Sequence record: SRR22947725_4314
Reading direction: 5' to 3' (one strand)
Length of the DNA stretch: 20,000 bases
The translations under genes were made by a program, and so were the position numbers. The number at the start of each line of letters is the position of its first letter. The stretch's first letter is position 1. The notes under the pieces were generated by a model. The model saw nothing but the letters and a program-made list of their open reading frames with translations. It ran no database searches and had not been told where the DNA came from. Of this stretch, positions 12,095 through 19,077 are shown in pieces.

Positions 12095-13008
12095 CGGCCC
12101 AGGACCGCGCGCAGAGCTGTCTCGAGGTCAGGGTGCTCAAATGTGAAGCCGGCGTCATCCTGTAAGACCTGTGGGAACACCTTCTGGCCAGTGAAAAGCA
12201 GGTTCTGGGCTAGTTCGCTTCCGAGCAGCAACTTCGGCCCGAATTTCGGCGTCGGCAGGAACGTCGGACGCTTGAGCACGCTGCCCAGCGTGTTGGCAAA
12301 GTCTGCCTGCGTCGTCGGCTGTGGTGCGGTCAGGTTGACGGGGCCAGCGATGTCGCCGGTGAGGAGATGGGTGATTGCCCGCACCTCGTCGTCGATGGAG
12401 ATCCAACTCCACCATTGCTCACCCGAGCCGATCGTGCCGCCTGCACCGAGCTTGAATAGCGGCAACTGCTTCTTGAGAGCGCCGCCCTTGGCCGAGAGCA
12501 CGATGCCAGTTCGGAGGAACACCACGCGGACTCCGGCCGCGGTTGCGGGCTCGGTGCACTGTTCCCACTCGACGGTGAGGTCGGCGAGGAAGCCTGTACC
12601 CGGCGTCGAAGTCTCGTCAAGGTCTTCGTCGCCTCGCGCGCCATAGACGCCGACCGCTGAGCCCGACAGCAGCACCTTCGGGCCGTTGCTGCATGCAGCG
12701 ATGGCATTGGCGAGCAACGCTGTTCCTTTGGTTCGACTTTCGACGAGGACTCGCTTGTAGTCGTCCGACCAGCGTTTGTCGCCGATTCCAGCGCCCGCAA
12801 GGTGCACCACAGCATCGATCCCCTCCAACTGGGCGGCGAGATCTGCGACGGCAGCTTCTTGGTCAGCTGTGCCGTTCGGTGACCAACTGATCTCGTTGTC
12901 GCCGGCCACGCGGCGGACGACTCGGACAGGGGTGTGGCCGACGGATTCGAGATGGGTCATCAGAGCAGTTCCGACAAGGCCTGAGGATCCGGTAATTGCA
13001 ACGCGCAT
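12091..13008 (-). CDS. TIGR01777 family (YfcH-like) NAD-dependent epimerase/oxidoreductase
   Basis: ITGSSGLVG, VVHLAGAGIGDKRWS, SGSAVGVYG, GFLA.L..EWE, LRTGIVL, GSGEQWWSWI and GPVNLTAP. Confidence 0.93.
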   Translation of the reverse strand: MRVAITGSSGLVGTALMTHLESVGHTPVRVVRRVAGDNEISWSPNGTADQEAAVADLAAQLEGIDAVVHLAGAGIGDKRWSDDYKRVLVESRTKGTALLANAIAACSNGPKVLLSGSAVGVYGARGDEDLDETSTPGTGFLADLTVEWEQCTEPATAAGVRVVFLRTGIVLSAKGGALKKQLPLFKLGAGGTIGSGEQWWSWISIDDEVRAITHLLTGDIAGPVNLTAPQPTTQADFANTLGSVLKRPTFLPTPKFGPKLLLGSELAQNLLFTGQKVFPQVLQDDAGFTFEHPDLETALRAVLGR

Positions 13009-13125
13009 ACCAAGGACAGTACGACCCGTTCGCGCCGGAGACCACTTGTGAGTCCGAATCGCGTGTGTTCTCGGGTCAGAGCCCGATCAGCAAGATGCGG
13101 ACTGTCGCGACGAAGTCGAGACGGC

Positions 13126-13755
13126 TCAGGCTTCAGAGATGATTTGATCGAGCAACGCGCCGTTGACGGCGCCGGCAACCGATTCGATCGAGCCGTCGGT
13201 CTTCACGATCGCCATGGCGGGCTGGAACGCCACGTCGAATCGGTTGTAGATAACGCCAGGGTCATCGTTGATCTGCGGAAAAGTCAGACCGTGCTTGTCG
13301 ATGAACCCCTGGAATGACTCATCGTCGCCGGTCCATGCGATTCCGATGAAGTTGACGGAGTCACCGAACTTTGCTGCTGCCTCCTCGACCGAGGGGGCTT
13401 CACGATTGCAGGTGCTTCAAGTGGGAGCCCAGAACCAGAACACTGTCGGTTTGCCGGCCAGGGTGGTGGCATCGAGTTCGCCACCGCCAACGAGTGGAGC
13501 GCTGAACTGCAGCGCGGCGGGGGCGGCGGACGCATCGCTGTCAGATATCGCATCGTCGCCGGCTGCTGCATCACCAGTTACCTCAGCGGCAGGAACCTCT
13601 GCAGCGGGCACCTCGGTTGCTGGCTCGACCGCGACCTCCCTCGCCGGTGGCGCTGTCTCGTTCTCCGTCGCCGAGTCGGTGGCTGACCCACCGCTACACG
13701 CCGTCAACAGCAGGCTGCCCGCAGCGATGGCGCCAAGCACCCGTGTCGACTTCAT
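13126..13755 (-). CDS. TlpA/DsbE-type thioredoxin-fold lipoprotein with UxxC motif; predicted selenoprotein (TGA 13419-13417 = Sec), 209 aa
   Basis: Lipobox LLLTAC, acidic Ala/Pro linker, then LAGKPTVFWFWAPT-TGA-STCNREAPSVEEAAAKFGDSVNFIGIAWTGDDESFQGFIDKHGLTFPQINDDPGVIYNRFDVAFQPAMAIVKTDGSIESVAGAVNGALLDQIISEA-stop (13128-13126). The frame stays open for 96 codons past the TGA and completes the redoxin fold. Confidence 0.88.
13379..13398 (-). promoter_or_regulatory. Candidate bacterial SECIS hairpin
   Basis: mRNA GCCCCCUC-GGUC-GAGGAGGC: 7 pairs plus one C.A mismatch, G-led 4-nt apical loop starting 26 nt after the UGA. Confidence 0.7.
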
Positions 13756-13947
13756 GCCGGCACGCTAACGCTGGCGCCAGTGGGTGACGGCCCGTGCCTC
13801 CTAGGTTTCGCGGACGTTTCGCGGTCATCACGATCACCGTCACCATCGCCATGACCGTCACCATGGCGACCAGTATCCCGATCAGCGTGCTCCAGCGAGC
13901 GGGATGCGCGCTCGCACCCGCAGATCCGGCCCGTAGCCTTTCTGACG

Positions 13948-14373
13948 ATGAAGACGCGGACCCTGTTGCTGCTTTCGGTCGGGACAGCACTGATGATCTT
14001 GCTCGCCGGTGGTGCGCTGCTGTTCCAGTTGTCCAACCAGGAGTCGACGGGCGCCTCGCTCGCGTTCGGGCAGGCAACGACTGTTGGCGACGTCGAGGTG
14101 ACCGTCAATGGATCAGACGTCGTCGCCGACACGCTCGTCGTTTCGGTGGCAATCTCCGGAGTGGACGACATCGACGGTATCGAGAGCTTCCGTCTCGTCA
14201 CGGGCGATCGACGGCTGGACCCCATTGCTGCACCAGCAGCAGGTCGTTGTGCCGAGATCACAGTTGCCGTGCAAGAGTGCGCCATCGAGTTCGACATCAG
14301 CGCCAGTCAAGGCACGAGCCGAGTCCTGGTCTTGCGTCGTGGTGAAGATCAAGCGACATGGCGGCTCAGCTGA
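13948..14373 (+). CDS. Hypothetical membrane-anchored/secreted protein, 141 aa
   Basis: N-terminal MKTR plus hydrophobic helix, beta-rich ectodomain with two Cys, TAGCCT-N8-ATG upstream, and no overlap with better-supported genes. Confidence 0.75.
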   Translation: MKTRTLLLLSVGTALMILLAGGALLFQLSNQESTGASLAFGQATTVGDVEVTVNGSDVVADTLVVSVAISGVDDIDGIESFRLVTGDRRLDPIAAPAAGRCAEITVAVQECAIEFDISASQGTSRVLVLRRGEDQATWRLS

Positions 14374-17397: not shown

Positions 17398-19077
17398 ATG
17401 GCTGATCCGCTGCGCGTCCGCTGGTTGGGCACCGTGCCCTACCGCGAGGCGCTGGCCGTCCAAACCTCACTGTTTGAACACGGCACAGGGCAGCACCTGT
17501 TGCTGCTCGAACATCCGCACGTGTTCACCTACGGCCGCACCGCTGATCTTGCGACCAACCTGAAGTGTGAGCCTGCGACGGTCGGCGCTGAACTCGTTGC
17601 GGCCAAGCGCGGTGGCGACATCACGTATCACGGCCCCGGTCAGCTCGTCGGGTATCCGATTCTGAACATCGACAACAAGCTCGGGGCTACCGGCCACGTC
17701 TGTGGCGTCGAAGGCTTGATCATCGACGTGCTCACCGAACTCGGTGTGCCGAACGCTGGGCGACTCGAGGGGTATGCCGGAGTCTGGCTCGATGCCGGCA
17801 CCGAACGGGAACGCAAGATCTGTGCAATCGGGGTGCGACTCAAGAAAGGGCGCACGATGCACGGTTTTGCGCTCAACGTGGCGACGGACCTGGCGTTCAT
17901 GCGCGAACACATCGTGCCATGCGGCATTGGGGACAAGCCGGTCACGTCGCTCGCCGAAGAAGGCATCGACGTCACGATGGAACAGGTTGCCGCCGTTGTC
18001 GCCCGCTGTGCAGCAGACCGGTGGGCTGCTGGCGTGGCAGAACGACAGGACGTGGCATGGCGACACGCTGCCAACGGGCGCGACCTCACCGCGTTCTCAC
18101 GCGGTGAAGGCCCTGGTGAGCAAGTCAAACTTGTGTCCAACCGTGCCGCAGTTCGCCTCGAAGATGCCGGCGTCGACGTGGCAGCCGGCTTGTCGATCGA
18201 GACACGCAAGCCCGACTGGTTGCGGCCAAAGGTCGAACTCGGCGCCGAGGTCATGGAGCTGAAGAAGACGATTCGCTTGCTCGACCTCGTCACCGTGTGT
18301 GAGGACGCCGGGTGTCCGAACCTGTCCGACTGCTGGTCGGACGGTACGGCGACGTTCATGGCGCTGGGGGAGCGGTGCACCCGGGCGTGTGGCTTCTGCC
18401 TGGTCGACACCCGCAAGCCGATGCTGCCCGCCAGCGACGAGCCGGAGCGTGTGGCCGAAGCAATCGATCGGATGCAGCTCGATCATGCCGTGCTGACGAT
18501 GGTCGCTCGCGACGACCTCGCCGATGGCGGCATGGCGCACGTCGCGGCCTGCGTCGAAGCGATCCGGCTCCGACGCTCGACGGCCAACATCGAGACCCTG
18601 ATTTCGGACGCCAAGGGCGACGAGGCGTCTCTTGATCTGTTGTTTGCGGCACGTCCTGACGTAATGAACCACAATGTTGAAACGGTCGCGCGCCTCCAAC
18701 GAGCGGTCCGCCCGTCAGCGGGTTACGCCCGGTCGCTTGGCGTGCTGGCGCGAGCCAAGAAGGCAGGCCTCGTCACGAAGACCGGCTTCATGGCGGGGCT
18801 CGGTGAGACCGACGACGAGATTGTCGGTCTGCTTGCTGACCTCGCCGACCTGGGCGTCGACATCGTCACCATCGGCCAGTACCTGCGCCCGACATCGAAT
18901 CATCTCCCGATTGCCCGCTACGCCGAACCCGCCGAGTTCACGCGGTGGAAGCAGATCGGCGAGTCCTTCGGCATCGGCCACGTTGAAGCCAGCCCGCTCA
19001 CCCGCAGCAGCTACCACGCCAAGTCGGCTGCAGATGCAGTCACCCAGCCAGTCGCGGTGTCGTTGACGCGAGGGTGA
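17398..19077 (+). CDS. lipA: Fused octanoyltransferase (LipB) - lipoyl synthase (LipA)
   Basis: 559 aa, uninterrupted. N-half LipB: LLLLEHPHVFTYGR, RGGDITYHGPGQLVGYP, KICAIG, HGFALN, IVPCGI. C-half LipA from RKPDWL (18205): CEDAGCPNLSDC (CX4CX5C), CTRACGFC (CX3CX2C), NHNVETV, TIGQYLRP, RSSY. Confidence 0.95.
   Translation: MADPLRVRWLGTVPYREALAVQTSLFEHGTGQHLLLLEHPHVFTYGRTADLATNLKCEPATVGAELVAAKRGGDITYHGPGQLVGYPILNIDNKLGATGHVCGVEGLIIDVLTELGVPNAGRLEGYAGVWLDAGTERERKICAIGVRLKKGRTMHGFALNVATDLAFMREHIVPCGIGDKPVTSLAEEGIDVTMEQVAAVVARCAADRWAAGVAERQDVAWRHAANGRDLTAFSRGEGPGEQVKLVSNRAAVRLEDAGVDVAAGLSIETRKPDWLRPKVELGAEVMELKKTIRLLDLVTVCEDAGCPNLSDCWSDGTATFMALGERCTRACGFCLVDTRKPMLPASDEPERVAEAIDRMQLDHAVLTMVARDDLADGGMAHVAACVEAIRLRRSTANIETLISDAKGDEASLDLLFAARPDVMNHNVETVARLQRAVRPSAGYARSLGVLARAKKAGLVTKTGFMAGLGETDDEIVGLLADLADLGVDIVTIGQYLRPTSNHLPIARYAEPAEFTRWKQIGESFGIGHVEASPLTRSSYHAKSAADAVTQPVAVSLTRG

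What the first reader, a model, noticed from the sequence alone, without database searches (positions are those of the whole stretch)
13126..13755. Hidden selenoprotein: exported TlpA/DsbE-type lipoprotein with a UxxC active site
Seen: the ORF track stops at FWFWAPT*, but the TGA (13419-13417) is followed in frame by STCNREAP and 96 sense codons completing a thioredoxin fold. The N-terminus is a lipoprotein signal (LLLTAC). Established: TlpA/DsbE/DsbF proteins have WAxWCxxC here, and bacterial redox selenoproteins carry Sec at the first Cys. Inference: this is a lipid-anchored extracytoplasmic Sec-dependent thiol oxidoreductase that pipelines would split or call a pseudogene. Thioredoxin-like UxxC proteins are known from metagenomes, but an exported, apparently leaderless one in an Acidimicrobiia-like host is poorly characterised. 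It implies a Sec decoding system elsewhere in the genome.
Basis: partly seen in the sequence, partly recalled or inferred. Interest (0 to 1): 0.9.

Follow-up and report, generated by a model that had tools for sequence, protein, structure and literature searches.

The report
Unannotated selenocysteine DsbE/DsbF-like redox lipoprotein
The apparent stop codon inside this gene almost certainly encodes selenocysteine in the active site of a membrane-anchored, exported redox protein that gene callers cut in half, but this kind of bacterial selenoprotein is already known.

Summary
The minus-strand gene 13755..13126 has an in-frame TGA (13419-13417) where thioredoxin-fold relatives carry the first Cys of CxxC. 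Reading through gives a 209-aa lipoprotein with a U-S-T-C site.

I read the TGA as selenocysteine for these reasons:
- The same TGA is found in 99 of 151 genomes of the same bacterial family, and in 30 of 31 sequences inspected by column.
- A GGUC-capped hairpin starts 18 nt downstream. It has near-frozen synonymous sites and compensatory pair changes.
- 96 of the 99 genomes with the TGA form have selA.
- The nearest held genome has selA, selB, selD and tRNA-Sec. The window's own genome is not held.
- Two independent metagenome contigs bridge the TGA unchanged.

The closest solved relatives are the M. tuberculosis secreted oxidoreductases DsbE/MPT53 and DsbF. A conserved TAnnnT 6-8 nt before the start codon, with no Shine-Dalgarno motif, supports a leaderless mRNA.

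Public records truncate the gene to a "hypothetical protein". UxxC TlpA-like "thiol-disulfide isomerase-like" selenoproteins have been catalogued since 2005. This scan had already found the same family three times on other DNA. It is real but not new: a new member of a known kind. Redox direction, partner and substrates remain unknown.

The parts
13126..13755 (-). Complete selenoprotein gene: 209 codons (Sec at codon 113) plus the terminal TGA stop at 13128-13126
   Evidence: sequence and read-through translation. (Pfam domains span the TGA). (orthologues of the same architecture).
13762..13767 (-). TAGCGT, a -10-like TAnnnT hexamer 6 nt upstream of the ATG. Probable promoter of a leaderless mRNA (inferred).
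   Evidence: TAnnnT at offsets 6-8 in 20 of 27 sequences and at any other offset from 0 to 38 in only 1. No GGAG/GAGG/AGGA at -4..-16 in 0 of 27. The sigma-70 consensus scan found nothing.
13696..13755 (-). Signal peptide with lipobox (MKSTRVLGAIAAGSLLLTA|C). Cys20 (13698-13696) is the predicted lipidated residue.
   Evidence: Read directly. My lipobox pattern matched 27 of 31 sequences. There is no twin-arginine motif (sequence).
13522..13695 (-). Low-complexity Ala/Pro/Glu/Thr/Asp-rich linker (aa 21-78), variable in length
   Evidence: in-frame 27-nt and 3-nt length differences against G001. (linker length 34-79 aa among orthologues).
13129..13521 (-). Thioredoxin-fold catalytic domain (aa 79-209), DsbE/DsbF (MPT53)-like
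   Evidence: Pfam. (1lu4 1.1e-26, 3ios 6.4e-24, aligned over aa 76-198). (alignment of 36 sequences; Q178-P179, the candidate cis-Pro, is invariant).
13417..13419 (-). UGA read as selenocysteine (U113), aligned with the first Cys of CxxC
   Evidence: TGA in 30 of 31 sequences, TGC in 1. (Cys in paralogues and in the PDB relatives). (no variant at this place in the two bridging contigs, X1 record 1 and X8 record 20).
13408..13410 (-). Cys116, the resolving cysteine of the U-S-T-C motif
   Evidence: Invariant in 36 of 36 aligned sequences (column C38).
13379..13398 (-). Candidate bacterial SECIS hairpin starting 18 nt after the UGA: an 8-position stem with one internal mismatch and a GGUC loop (13390-13387)
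   Evidence: 30 sequences; loop invariant; RNAalifold finds the same 7 pairs. (synonymous sites frozen). (same hairpin with two further compensatory pairs in another family). (no variants listed between 13342 and 13440 in four runs).
13948..14373 (+). Divergently transcribed 141-aa membrane-anchored protein with an invariant Cys pair (C101, C111). It is a conserved neighbour; any functional link is only inferred.
   Evidence: found next to the gene in 26 of 30 loci. (27 sequences, both Cys invariant). (no Pfam or NCBIfam family). (not found next to the homologues in 8 loci outside the family).

Best explanation
This is one intact gene for a selenocysteine-containing, exported, lipid-anchored thiol-disulfide oxidoreductase of the actinobacterial DsbE/DsbF (MPT53) branch of the TlpA-like thioredoxin fold.

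Proposed mechanism:
- The mRNA is probably leaderless.
- At UGA113 a SelB.GTP.Sec-tRNASec complex is recruited by a GGUC-capped hairpin that begins 18 nt downstream inside the coding sequence. Sec is inserted instead of terminating.
- The true stop is the next in-frame TGA, which has no such hairpin.
- The precursor is exported unfolded through the Sec translocon. It is lipidated at Cys20 and held on the outer face of the membrane by a flexible linker of about 58 aa.
- In the thioredoxin domain Sec113 is the exposed attacking residue and Cys116 the resolving residue. Together they cycle between selenol/thiol and selenenylsulfide while exchanging with cysteines of envelope proteins.

Shown here: the reading frame, conservation of the UGA and the hairpin, co-occurrence with selA, homology to DsbE/DsbF, and the lipobox.

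Inferred: actual Sec insertion, lipidation, leaderless start, and the chemistry. The redox direction (oxidant, as reported for Mt-DsbE/F in vitro, or reductant), the recycling partner and the substrates are not determined.
For: - Frame and domain.
- TGA conservation: the TGA is kept at the same column in 30 of 31 inspected sequences. By my tally of the rows listed, it is kept in matches from 99 of 151 family genomes. It is also kept in four genomes of other families of the class.
- Translation downstream of the TGA: orthologues are 55-98% identical to the window's domain, and 12 of 18 invariant columns lie after the TGA.
- Hairpin structure: 88.8% of cells are paired, against 37.5-68.1% when partners are slid. 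The loop GGUC is invariant. Pair 30-45 is C-G in 25 distinct sequences and U-A in 4. Cells changed on both sides number 4 against a shuffle mean of 0.5 (0 of 500 shuffles reach it). RNAalifold predicts the same helix on its own.
- Independent origins: the U-A sequences sit in three separate places of the tree.
- A more distant sequence: L053, from another family, keeps the hairpin at the same distance with two more double changes (C-G to U-A, U-A to G-C).
- Synonymous sites: the majority-codon share is 0.95 in the 8 hairpin codons against 0.74 in 63 other columns. TCG is used 30/30, GTC 30/30 and CCC 27/27.
- Sec machinery: tRNA-Sec (65.1 bits, cut-off 47), selD (376 bits, itself with an in-frame TGA), and adjacent selA (404.7 bits) and selB (287.1 bits) in the nearest held genome G001. 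G001's orthologue is 95% identical.
- Co-occurrence: 96 of 99 genomes with the TGA form have selA. The 3 exceptions are 78, 90 and 86% complete. Apart from those 3, none of the 26 genomes without selA has the TGA form.
- TGA is the ordinary stop here: all 11 confident genes of the window end in TGA and no other has an internal one.
- Reads: independent contigs (X1 record 1; X8 record 20, from an RNA library) bridge the TGA with no change.
- Homology: 1lu4 MPT53 at 1.1e-26 and 3ios DsbF at 6.4e-24.
- Activity of the relatives: Mt-DsbE/F oxidatively fold hirudin in vitro (PMC3853704, passages read).
Against: - The window's own genome is not held, so its selABCD genes are inferred from relatives.
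- The hairpin alone is not thermodynamically unusual: the single-sequence fold has z = -0.37, and 61 of 200 shuffles fold as well.
- Only one of 8 pairs covaries within the family. Two of the five covariation measures are not above shuffles: pairs with a double change, 219 of 500 shuffles reach the value; further pair types, 500 of 500.
- The hairpin codons also encode a conserved peptide (EAPSVEE), and the Cys paralogues keep a similar peptide. Part of the nucleotide conservation is therefore protein constraint.
- In two more distant Sec forms (L054, L055) the minimum-energy fold does not place GGUC in a loop.
- No Rfam family matched.
- There is no protein-level evidence of selenium.
- The NCBIfam ResA, DsbE (CcmG) and TlpA models score far below their cut-offs.
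- A CcdA/DsbD-type partner was not found in G001, so the recycling route is open.
Confidence: 0.88

Rival explanations
1. Sec is real, but the enzyme is mainly an extracytoplasmic peroxide-reacting enzyme. It could be a peroxidase, or a peroxide-driven disulfide oxidase in which Sec-OH is resolved by Cys116, rather than a plain thiol-disulfide exchanger.
For: The best Pfam hit is AhpC-TSA. JGI labels relatives 'peroxiredoxin'. The higher reactivity of Sec is described in the review PMC13188914 (passages). No CcdA/DsbD_TM or VKOR was found in G001.
Against: The closest solved relatives are the CxxC oxidoreductases DsbE and DsbF, not peroxiredoxins. The motif is UxxC. The PxxxTxxU/C peroxiredoxin motif (review passage) does not fit, because the residue three before U is Ala. 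DsbB is present in G001 and in 4 other family genomes tested, so a conventional oxidising route exists.
Confidence: 0.08
2. The TGA is a true stop. Either the gene is a pseudogene, or it encodes only a 112-aa lipoprotein, with an untranslated remnant of a thioredoxin domain downstream.
For: The table-11 ORF ends there. Public records annotate only the N-terminal fragment, for example P0037.
Against: A remnant would decay. Instead, the downstream 96-99 codons stay open and conserved at 55-98% identity in 30 orthologues, with 12 invariant columns. The TGA itself is invariant. It co-occurs with selA.
Confidence: 0.02
3. Sequencing or assembly error, or a strain-specific nonsense mutation.
For: None found.
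Against: The same TGA is present in G001, in 29 other loci, and in contigs of independent public runs that bridge the site.
Confidence: 0.005
4. The organism reads TGA as a sense codon throughout (Trp or Gly, as in codes 4 or 25).
For: One public prediction (P0002) reads W at both TGAs of an orthologue.
Against: All 11 confident genes in the window end in TGA, and none except this one has an internal TGA. P0002 runs past the conserved C-terminus into unrelated sequence. tRNA-Sec and selA, selB and selD are present in the nearest genome.
Confidence: 0.005

Closest known systems
'Thiol-disulfide isomerase-like protein' selenoprotein family (UxxC; TlpA-like cd02966). It was first predicted from the Sargasso Sea metagenome (PMC1088965, tables read) and is listed in Table 1 of the 2026 review PMC13188914 (passages read).
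   Same: A thioredoxin-fold, TlpA-like protein with Sec at the first position of UxxC and widespread Cys homologues, found in marine bacteria.
   Different: I could not compare sequences. Whether the four Sargasso sequences are this DsbE/DsbF-like lipoprotein subfamily is therefore unknown. Neither paper, in the passages I read, mentions a lipoprotein anchor, Actinomycetota or Acidimicrobiia (0 occurrences).
Mycobacterium tuberculosis DsbE (MPT53, Rv2878c; PDB 1LU4) and DsbF (Rv1677; PDB 3IOS)
   Same: These are the closest solved relatives (1.1e-26 and 6.4e-24 over the whole domain). They are also exported actinobacterial single-domain thioredoxin-fold proteins. They share the W-F-W-x-P-x-C/U-x-x-C-N/Q-x-E-A-P context and the Q-P cis-Pro motif.
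   Different: Those proteins have Cys-x-x-Cys; this one has Sec-Ser-Thr-Cys, and Thr replaces the Trp before the first Cys. Their in-vitro oxidase activity (PMC3853704) has not been tested for this protein. The long low-complexity linker is specific to this lineage.
'Prx-like thiol:disulfide oxidoreductase' selenoproteins (PF00578, UxxC/UxxU; review Table 1)
   Same: PF00578 is the top Pfam hit here, and the motif is UxxC.
   Different: This is a different catalogue entry. Its example comes from a deltaproteobacterial-type lineage, by recall of the accession context, not tested. Which of the two entries fits better cannot be settled without their sequences.
ResA / CcmG (DsbE) / TlpA cytochrome-c-maturation thioredoxins
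   Same: The same TlpA-like fold, an extracytoplasmic location and a membrane tether.
   Different: The NCBIfam models score far below their cut-offs (ResA 51.9 against 170, DsbE 24.7 against 123.15, TlpA 19.4 against 230). There are no cytochrome-c maturation genes next to the gene.

Membership tests
Bacterial SelB/SECIS-dependent selenoprotein gene | In-frame UGA aligned with Cys in homologues, with conserved coding sequence on both sides | tested here: met
   (TGA in 30 of 31 sequences, TGC in 1). (Cys in paralogues and in 1lu4 and 3ios). (12 of 18 invariant columns lie downstream).
Bacterial SelB/SECIS-dependent selenoprotein gene | Stem-loop shortly downstream of the UGA with conserved G/U in the apical loop (bacterial SECIS; the spacing rule is recalled, not from a call) | tested here: met
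   The hairpin at 13398-13379 starts 18 nt after the UGA and has an invariant GGUC loop. Compensatory changes are seen and synonymous sites are frozen. Caveats: the single-sequence z-score is not significant, and L054 and L055 are unclear.
Bacterial SelB/SECIS-dependent selenoprotein gene | selA, selB, selC (tRNA-Sec) and selD in the same genome | tested here: inconclusive
   The window's own assembly is not held. All four are present in the nearest held genome G001. selA is present in 96 of 99 family genomes with the TGA form.
Bacterial SelB/SECIS-dependent selenoprotein gene | Selenium actually incorporated at the UGA | not testable with these tools
   This needs 75Se labelling or mass spectrometry.
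Thiol-disulfide isomerase-like selenoprotein (UxxC, TlpA-like cd02966) | UxxC redox motif in a TlpA-like thioredoxin domain | tested here: met
   The motif is U-S-T-C. Pfam AhpC-TSA, Redoxin and Thioredoxin_8 score over their cut-offs. cd02966 itself is not in the libraries on hand.
Thiol-disulfide isomerase-like selenoprotein (UxxC, TlpA-like cd02966) | Sequence relatedness to the family's published members | not testable with these tools
   The example accession in review Table 1 and the Sargasso sequences could not be fetched.
Actinobacterial DsbE/DsbF (MPT53) oxidoreductases | Full-domain sequence homology to Mt-DsbE and Mt-DsbF | tested here: met
   1lu4_A at 1.1e-26 (aa 81-193) and 3ios_A at 6.4e-24 (aa 76-198). 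The next best hit is ResA at 7.1e-8.
Actinobacterial DsbE/DsbF (MPT53) oxidoreductases | C-x-x-C active site and cis-Pro loop | tested here: inconclusive
   The second Cys and the Q-P motif are invariant. The first Cys is replaced by Sec, so the protein is a Sec variant rather than a canonical member.
Actinobacterial DsbE/DsbF (MPT53) oxidoreductases | Export to the extracytoplasmic side | tested here: met
   The signal peptide and lipobox are read from the sequence, and the pattern matched 27 of 31 sequences. No signal-peptide predictor was available.
Actinobacterial DsbE/DsbF (MPT53) oxidoreductases | Oxidative protein-folding activity in vitro | not testable with these tools
   [quoted passage not shown] This protein has not been assayed.
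ResA / CcmG-DsbE / TlpA (NCBIfam NF002854, TIGR00385, NF047696) | Score over the curated cut-off | tested here: not met
   51.9 against 170, 24.7 against 123.15, and 19.4 against 230.
Peroxiredoxin (Prx) | PxxxTxxC/U peroxidatic motif (motif as quoted in PMC13188914) | tested here: not met
   The sequence around U113 is F-W-A-P-T-U. The residue three before U is Ala, not Thr. PF00578 is nevertheless over its gathering score.

The most novel reading that the evidence does not exclude
The selenoprotein may work as a dedicated pair with the divergently transcribed 141-aa membrane-anchored protein of no known family (13948-14373). That protein's two cysteines are invariant in all 27 sequences aligned. 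The Sec enzyme would form or break that one disulfide. Alternatively it uses it as its redox relay, possibly driven by peroxide rather than by a CcdA-type electron donor, which was not found in the nearest genome. That would be a small, self-contained, selenium-dependent redox module on the cell surface of abundant marine Acidimicrobiia.
Probability: 0.1. Interest if true: 0.55.

Novelty: new member of a known kind. Interest (0 to 1): 0.3.

Why it matters
Gene callers stop at the UGA. The public records I inspected hold only a 112-122-aa "hypothetical protein" or a mis-translated form. A conserved cell-surface redox enzyme of a widespread marine actinobacterial family is therefore missing from annotations and from selenoproteome counts.

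The compact, highly conserved UGA-plus-18-nt GGUC hairpin gives a lineage-specific search pattern for other hidden selenoproteins in Acidimicrobiia. It also implies that envelope thiol chemistry in these bacteria depends on selenium supply. None of this changes what is known about selenoproteins in general.

Tried and rejected
- Single-sequence folding of the region after the UGA was not distinguishable from shuffles. It is used only as a caveat.
- An Rfam scan of 13250-13500 gave only a chance snoRNA hit at E = 6.1.
- The sigma-70 and terminator consensus scan of 12950-14000 found 0 sites.
- The window holds no tRNA.
- NCBIfam has no model that claims this protein.
The binding question is untested. 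No structure model or fold search was used in this report.
- tblastn of the 141-aa neighbour against 8 loci around homologues outside the family found nothing credible. The pairing is therefore known only within the family.
- The Sec/Cys tree (36 rows, domain only, Sec column dropped) has an unresolved backbone: 15 of 33 inner branches are open. The direction of Sec-Cys change cannot be read from it.
- Partner search. DsbD_TM (PF02683) and VKOR (PF07884) were not found in G001, which is 97% complete, and are patchy or weak in five relatives. DsbD_2 is weak. DsbB is present in 5 of 5 genomes tested. This does not decide between an oxidising and a reducing role.
The RNA-library contigs that were laid do not prove transcription.
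- Literature searches for this protein gave nothing on point: 'selenocysteine + Ilumatobacter' (2 papers, listing only, neither relevant by title or abstract); 'selenoprotein + DsbE + selenocysteine' (1 unrelated paper); 'selenoprotein + Acidimicrobi' (3 papers). Of the last group, the Actinomarina preprint (passages read) reports Sec machinery and about 5 mostly uncharacterised selenoproteins per genome in another order of the class. The words redoxin and thioredoxin do not occur in it.

Full report
**1. Observation**

On the minus strand an ORF begins at ATG 13755-13753 and reads MKSTRVLGAIAAGSLLLTAC...KPTVFWFWAPT. It then meets TGA at 13419-13417. Read through, the frame continues with STCNREAPSVEE... 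for 96 more sense codons to TGA 13128-13126, giving 209 residues.

Pfam AhpC-TSA (2.1e-13, aa 81-191), Redoxin, Thioredoxin_8 and Thioredoxin all match across the TGA. The two halves are therefore one thioredoxin-fold domain, and the TGA sits where the family has the first Cys of CxxC.

**2. Is the TGA conserved?**

- The window's own assembly is not held. The nearest held genome, G001, shares 43% of sampled 31-mers. It has the same gene with the same TGA, and two in-frame length differences (27 and 3 nt) in the linker.
- I searched the read-through protein against 151 genomes of the same family, a search that reads through stops. 138 genomes gave matches at E <= 1e-10.
- Tallying the listed rows with E <= 1e-20 and a TGA inside the match gives 99 genomes. 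This tally has limits: 108 weaker matches were not listed; G083's TGA row covers only residues 119-209; and G147 and G049 carry extra stops. One of the 151 genomes, G090, is flagged unpublished. It had no TGA form and no selA, and it enters only these tallies.
- In the window plus the 30 loci fetched, the codon at the active-site column is TGA in 30 and TGC in 1 (L042, a Cys paralogue). The motif is FWFWAPxUxxCNREAPSVEE, and 96-99 sense codons follow.
- The domain is 55-98% identical between the window and the 30 locus-derived rows (the 29 Sec orthologues and the Cys paralogue L042). 12 of 18 invariant columns lie after the TGA, including the second Cys and a Q-P motif.
- A class-level sample of 251 genomes found matches at E <= 1e-20 in 30. 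21 of these are among the 25 sampled genomes of this family and 9 lie outside it. Of those 9, 4 have a TGA and 5 do not.
- I checked 6 of the 9 by eye. G356, G220, G266 and G217 have TGA at the same column. G333 and G159 have Cys.

**3. Recoding signal**

- Eighteen nucleotides after the UGA lies a 20-nt hairpin (13398-13379). Its stem has eight positions with one internal mismatch, and its loop is GGUC.
- On its own it does not fold better than shuffled sequence (z = -0.37).
- Across 30 Sec-form sequences (29 distinct) the loop and most stem positions are invariant. 88.8% of cells pair, against 37.5-68.1% when the partners are slid. Pair 30-45 is C-G in 25 sequences and U-A in 4.
- Cells changed on both sides (4, against a shuffle mean of 0.5) and the covariation score (0.079 against 0.048) exceed all 500 shuffles. 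The counts of covarying pairs (1) and of further pair types (3) do not.
- RNAalifold predicts the same helix without being told.
- The four U-A sequences lie in three separate parts of the protein tree, so this was not one event.
- L053, from another family of the order, keeps the hairpin at the same distance with two further double changes. L052 has a 7-bp GGUC-capped hairpin 9 nt further on. In L054 and L055 the minimum-energy fold does not show it.
- Codon usage gives the clearest signal. In the eight hairpin codons the majority codon is used by 95% of the sequences that share the residue (Ser TCG 30/30, Val GTC 30/30, Pro CCC 27/27). The figure is 74% over 63 other columns.
- Part of this conservation is protein constraint, because the Cys paralogues keep a similar peptide. 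Their nucleotides, however, differ (L042).
- Rfam has no matching model.

**4. Decoding machinery**

- G001 has tRNA-Sec (65.1 bits against a gathering score of 47), selD (376 bits, itself with an in-frame TGA), and adjacent selA and selB (404.7 and 287.1 bits), all over their cut-offs.
- Across the 151 family genomes, selA is found in 125.
- 96 of the 99 genomes with the TGA form have selA. The three exceptions are 78, 90 and 86% complete.
- 29 genomes have selA without the TGA form, and 23 have neither. Kin are not independent, so I give no statistic.
- TGA is the normal stop in this organism: all 11 confident genes of the window end in TGA, and only this gene has an internal one.

**5. Reads**

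19 of the 23 listed public runs, from 13 studies, hold the stretch or a part of it. 8 of them, labelled marine or aquatic metagenomes, hold half or more of its sampled words. I laid contigs of four runs. X1 record 1 (13000-13584) and X8 record 20 (13000-13690, from a metatranscriptomic library) bridge the TGA. No run shows another letter at 13417-13419, nor anywhere between 13342 and 13440, while variants are listed on both sides. Contigs from an RNA library do not prove transcription.

**6. What the protein is**

- The closest solved structures by sequence are M. tuberculosis MPT53/DsbE (1lu4, 1.1e-26) and DsbF (3ios, 6.4e-24), aligned over the whole domain. ResA follows at 7.1e-8.
- The NCBIfam models for ResA, CcmG-type DsbE and TlpA are far below their cut-offs.
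- My lipobox pattern matched 27 of the 31 sequences. One of the four others is cut by a contig end.
- The linker varies from 34 to 79 residues.
- TAnnnT lies 6-8 nt before the chosen start codon in 20 of 27 sequences, and at any other offset from 0 to 38 only once. None of the 27 has a GGAG/GAGG/AGGA word at -4 to -16. This is the pattern of leaderless actinobacterial genes (established knowledge, recalled). An in-frame TAG four codons upstream leaves no earlier start in the window.
- In G001 I found DsbB (69.4 bits) but not DsbD_TM or VKOR. Relatives are patchy for the latter two. The redox direction remains open.

**7. Surroundings**

- Downstream on the same strand are a YfcH-like epimerase (Epimerase + DUF1731), a flavin amine oxidase, a MarR regulator and ArgJ.
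- Upstream and divergent are a 141-aa ORF without any family, then lipoamide dehydrogenase, an E2 acyltransferase and a LipB-LipA fusion.
- The 141-aa protein has an N-terminal membrane anchor. It lies next to the gene in 26 of 30 loci, and its two cysteines are invariant in 27 sequences.
- It was not found beside the homologues outside the family.
- A test of binding could not be run.

**8. What is known**

- The Sargasso Sea selenoproteome paper lists a new 'Thiol-disulfide isomerase-like protein' family with UxxC, containing 4 sequences and with widespread Cys homologues (PMC1088965, tables read).
[quoted passage not shown] It does not mention Actinomycetota, Acidimicrobiia, lipoproteins or export.
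- I could not compare sequences with those entries.
- Public protein records truncate the gene. P0037 ('hypothetical protein [Ilumatobacter coccineus]'), P0034 and P0019 end at ...FWFWAPT. P0002 reads W at both TGAs (I inspected 11 of 119 hits).
- This scan's earlier notes describe the same family three times on other genomes, with the same verdict. My evidence was gathered independently, and my reading had been formed before I read them.

**9. Verdict**

This is a real, intact, mis-annotated selenoprotein gene. It encodes a Sec-containing DsbE/DsbF-like lipoprotein with its own conserved recoding hairpin, and it is a core gene of this marine actinobacterial family. It is a new member of a known kind. 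Interest is modest (0.3). The open questions are its redox direction, its partner, and a possible link to the neighbouring two-cysteine membrane protein.

Noticed in passing
window 17398-19077 (+): A single 559-aa ORF fuses an octanoyltransferase LipB domain (aa 3-214) to a lipoyl synthase LipA domain (aa 266-548). It lies directly after the lpd and E2 genes. It scores far below the NCBIfam LplA-LipA fusion model's cut-off (323 against 800), so it is a different kind of fusion.
   Followed up: partly
window 13826-13864: A six-base tandem repeat (consensus CATCAC, 6.5 copies) lies in the 192-nt divergent intergenic region between the selenoprotein gene and the 141-aa gene. G001 appears to carry a longer run of related GGTGAC/GGTGAT-type units upstream (its 5' overhang), and contigs of public runs differ here (table 5c).
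   Followed up: partly
window 13948-14373 (+): A 141-aa protein with no Pfam or NCBIfam family has an N-terminal membrane anchor and two invariant cysteines (C101, C111). It is conserved as the divergent neighbour in 26 of 30 family loci.
   Followed up: partly
L009 (G001:C28:2288-3211): The selD gene of the nearest genome itself contains one in-frame TGA. It is probably also a selenoprotein.
   Followed up: no
G001:C24:1642-1935; also G079:C9:564897-565508, G111:C1:213309-213866, G119:C7:234244-234759 and others: Weaker thioredoxin-fold matches (27-35% identity) also carry one in-frame TGA. They may be a second, unrelated UxxC-type selenoprotein family in the same genomes.
   Followed up: no
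G115:C45:5035-6244; G036:C154:60502-61728; G142:C248:1382-2690; G083:C26:133720-135066: In four genomes a Cys-form paralogue (WAPWCxxC) sits directly beside the Sec form, a tandem Cys and Sec pair. In the tree the Cys forms fall inside the same unresolved radiation.
   Followed up: partly
window 13414-13422 and 13399-13401 (-): Codons flanking the UGA are also frozen in the orthologues: Thr-1 ACT 19/19, Ser+1 AGC 24/24 and Glu+6 GAA 29/30. This is despite a G+C-rich third-position preference elsewhere. It suggests a sequence context requirement beyond the hairpin.
   Followed up: no
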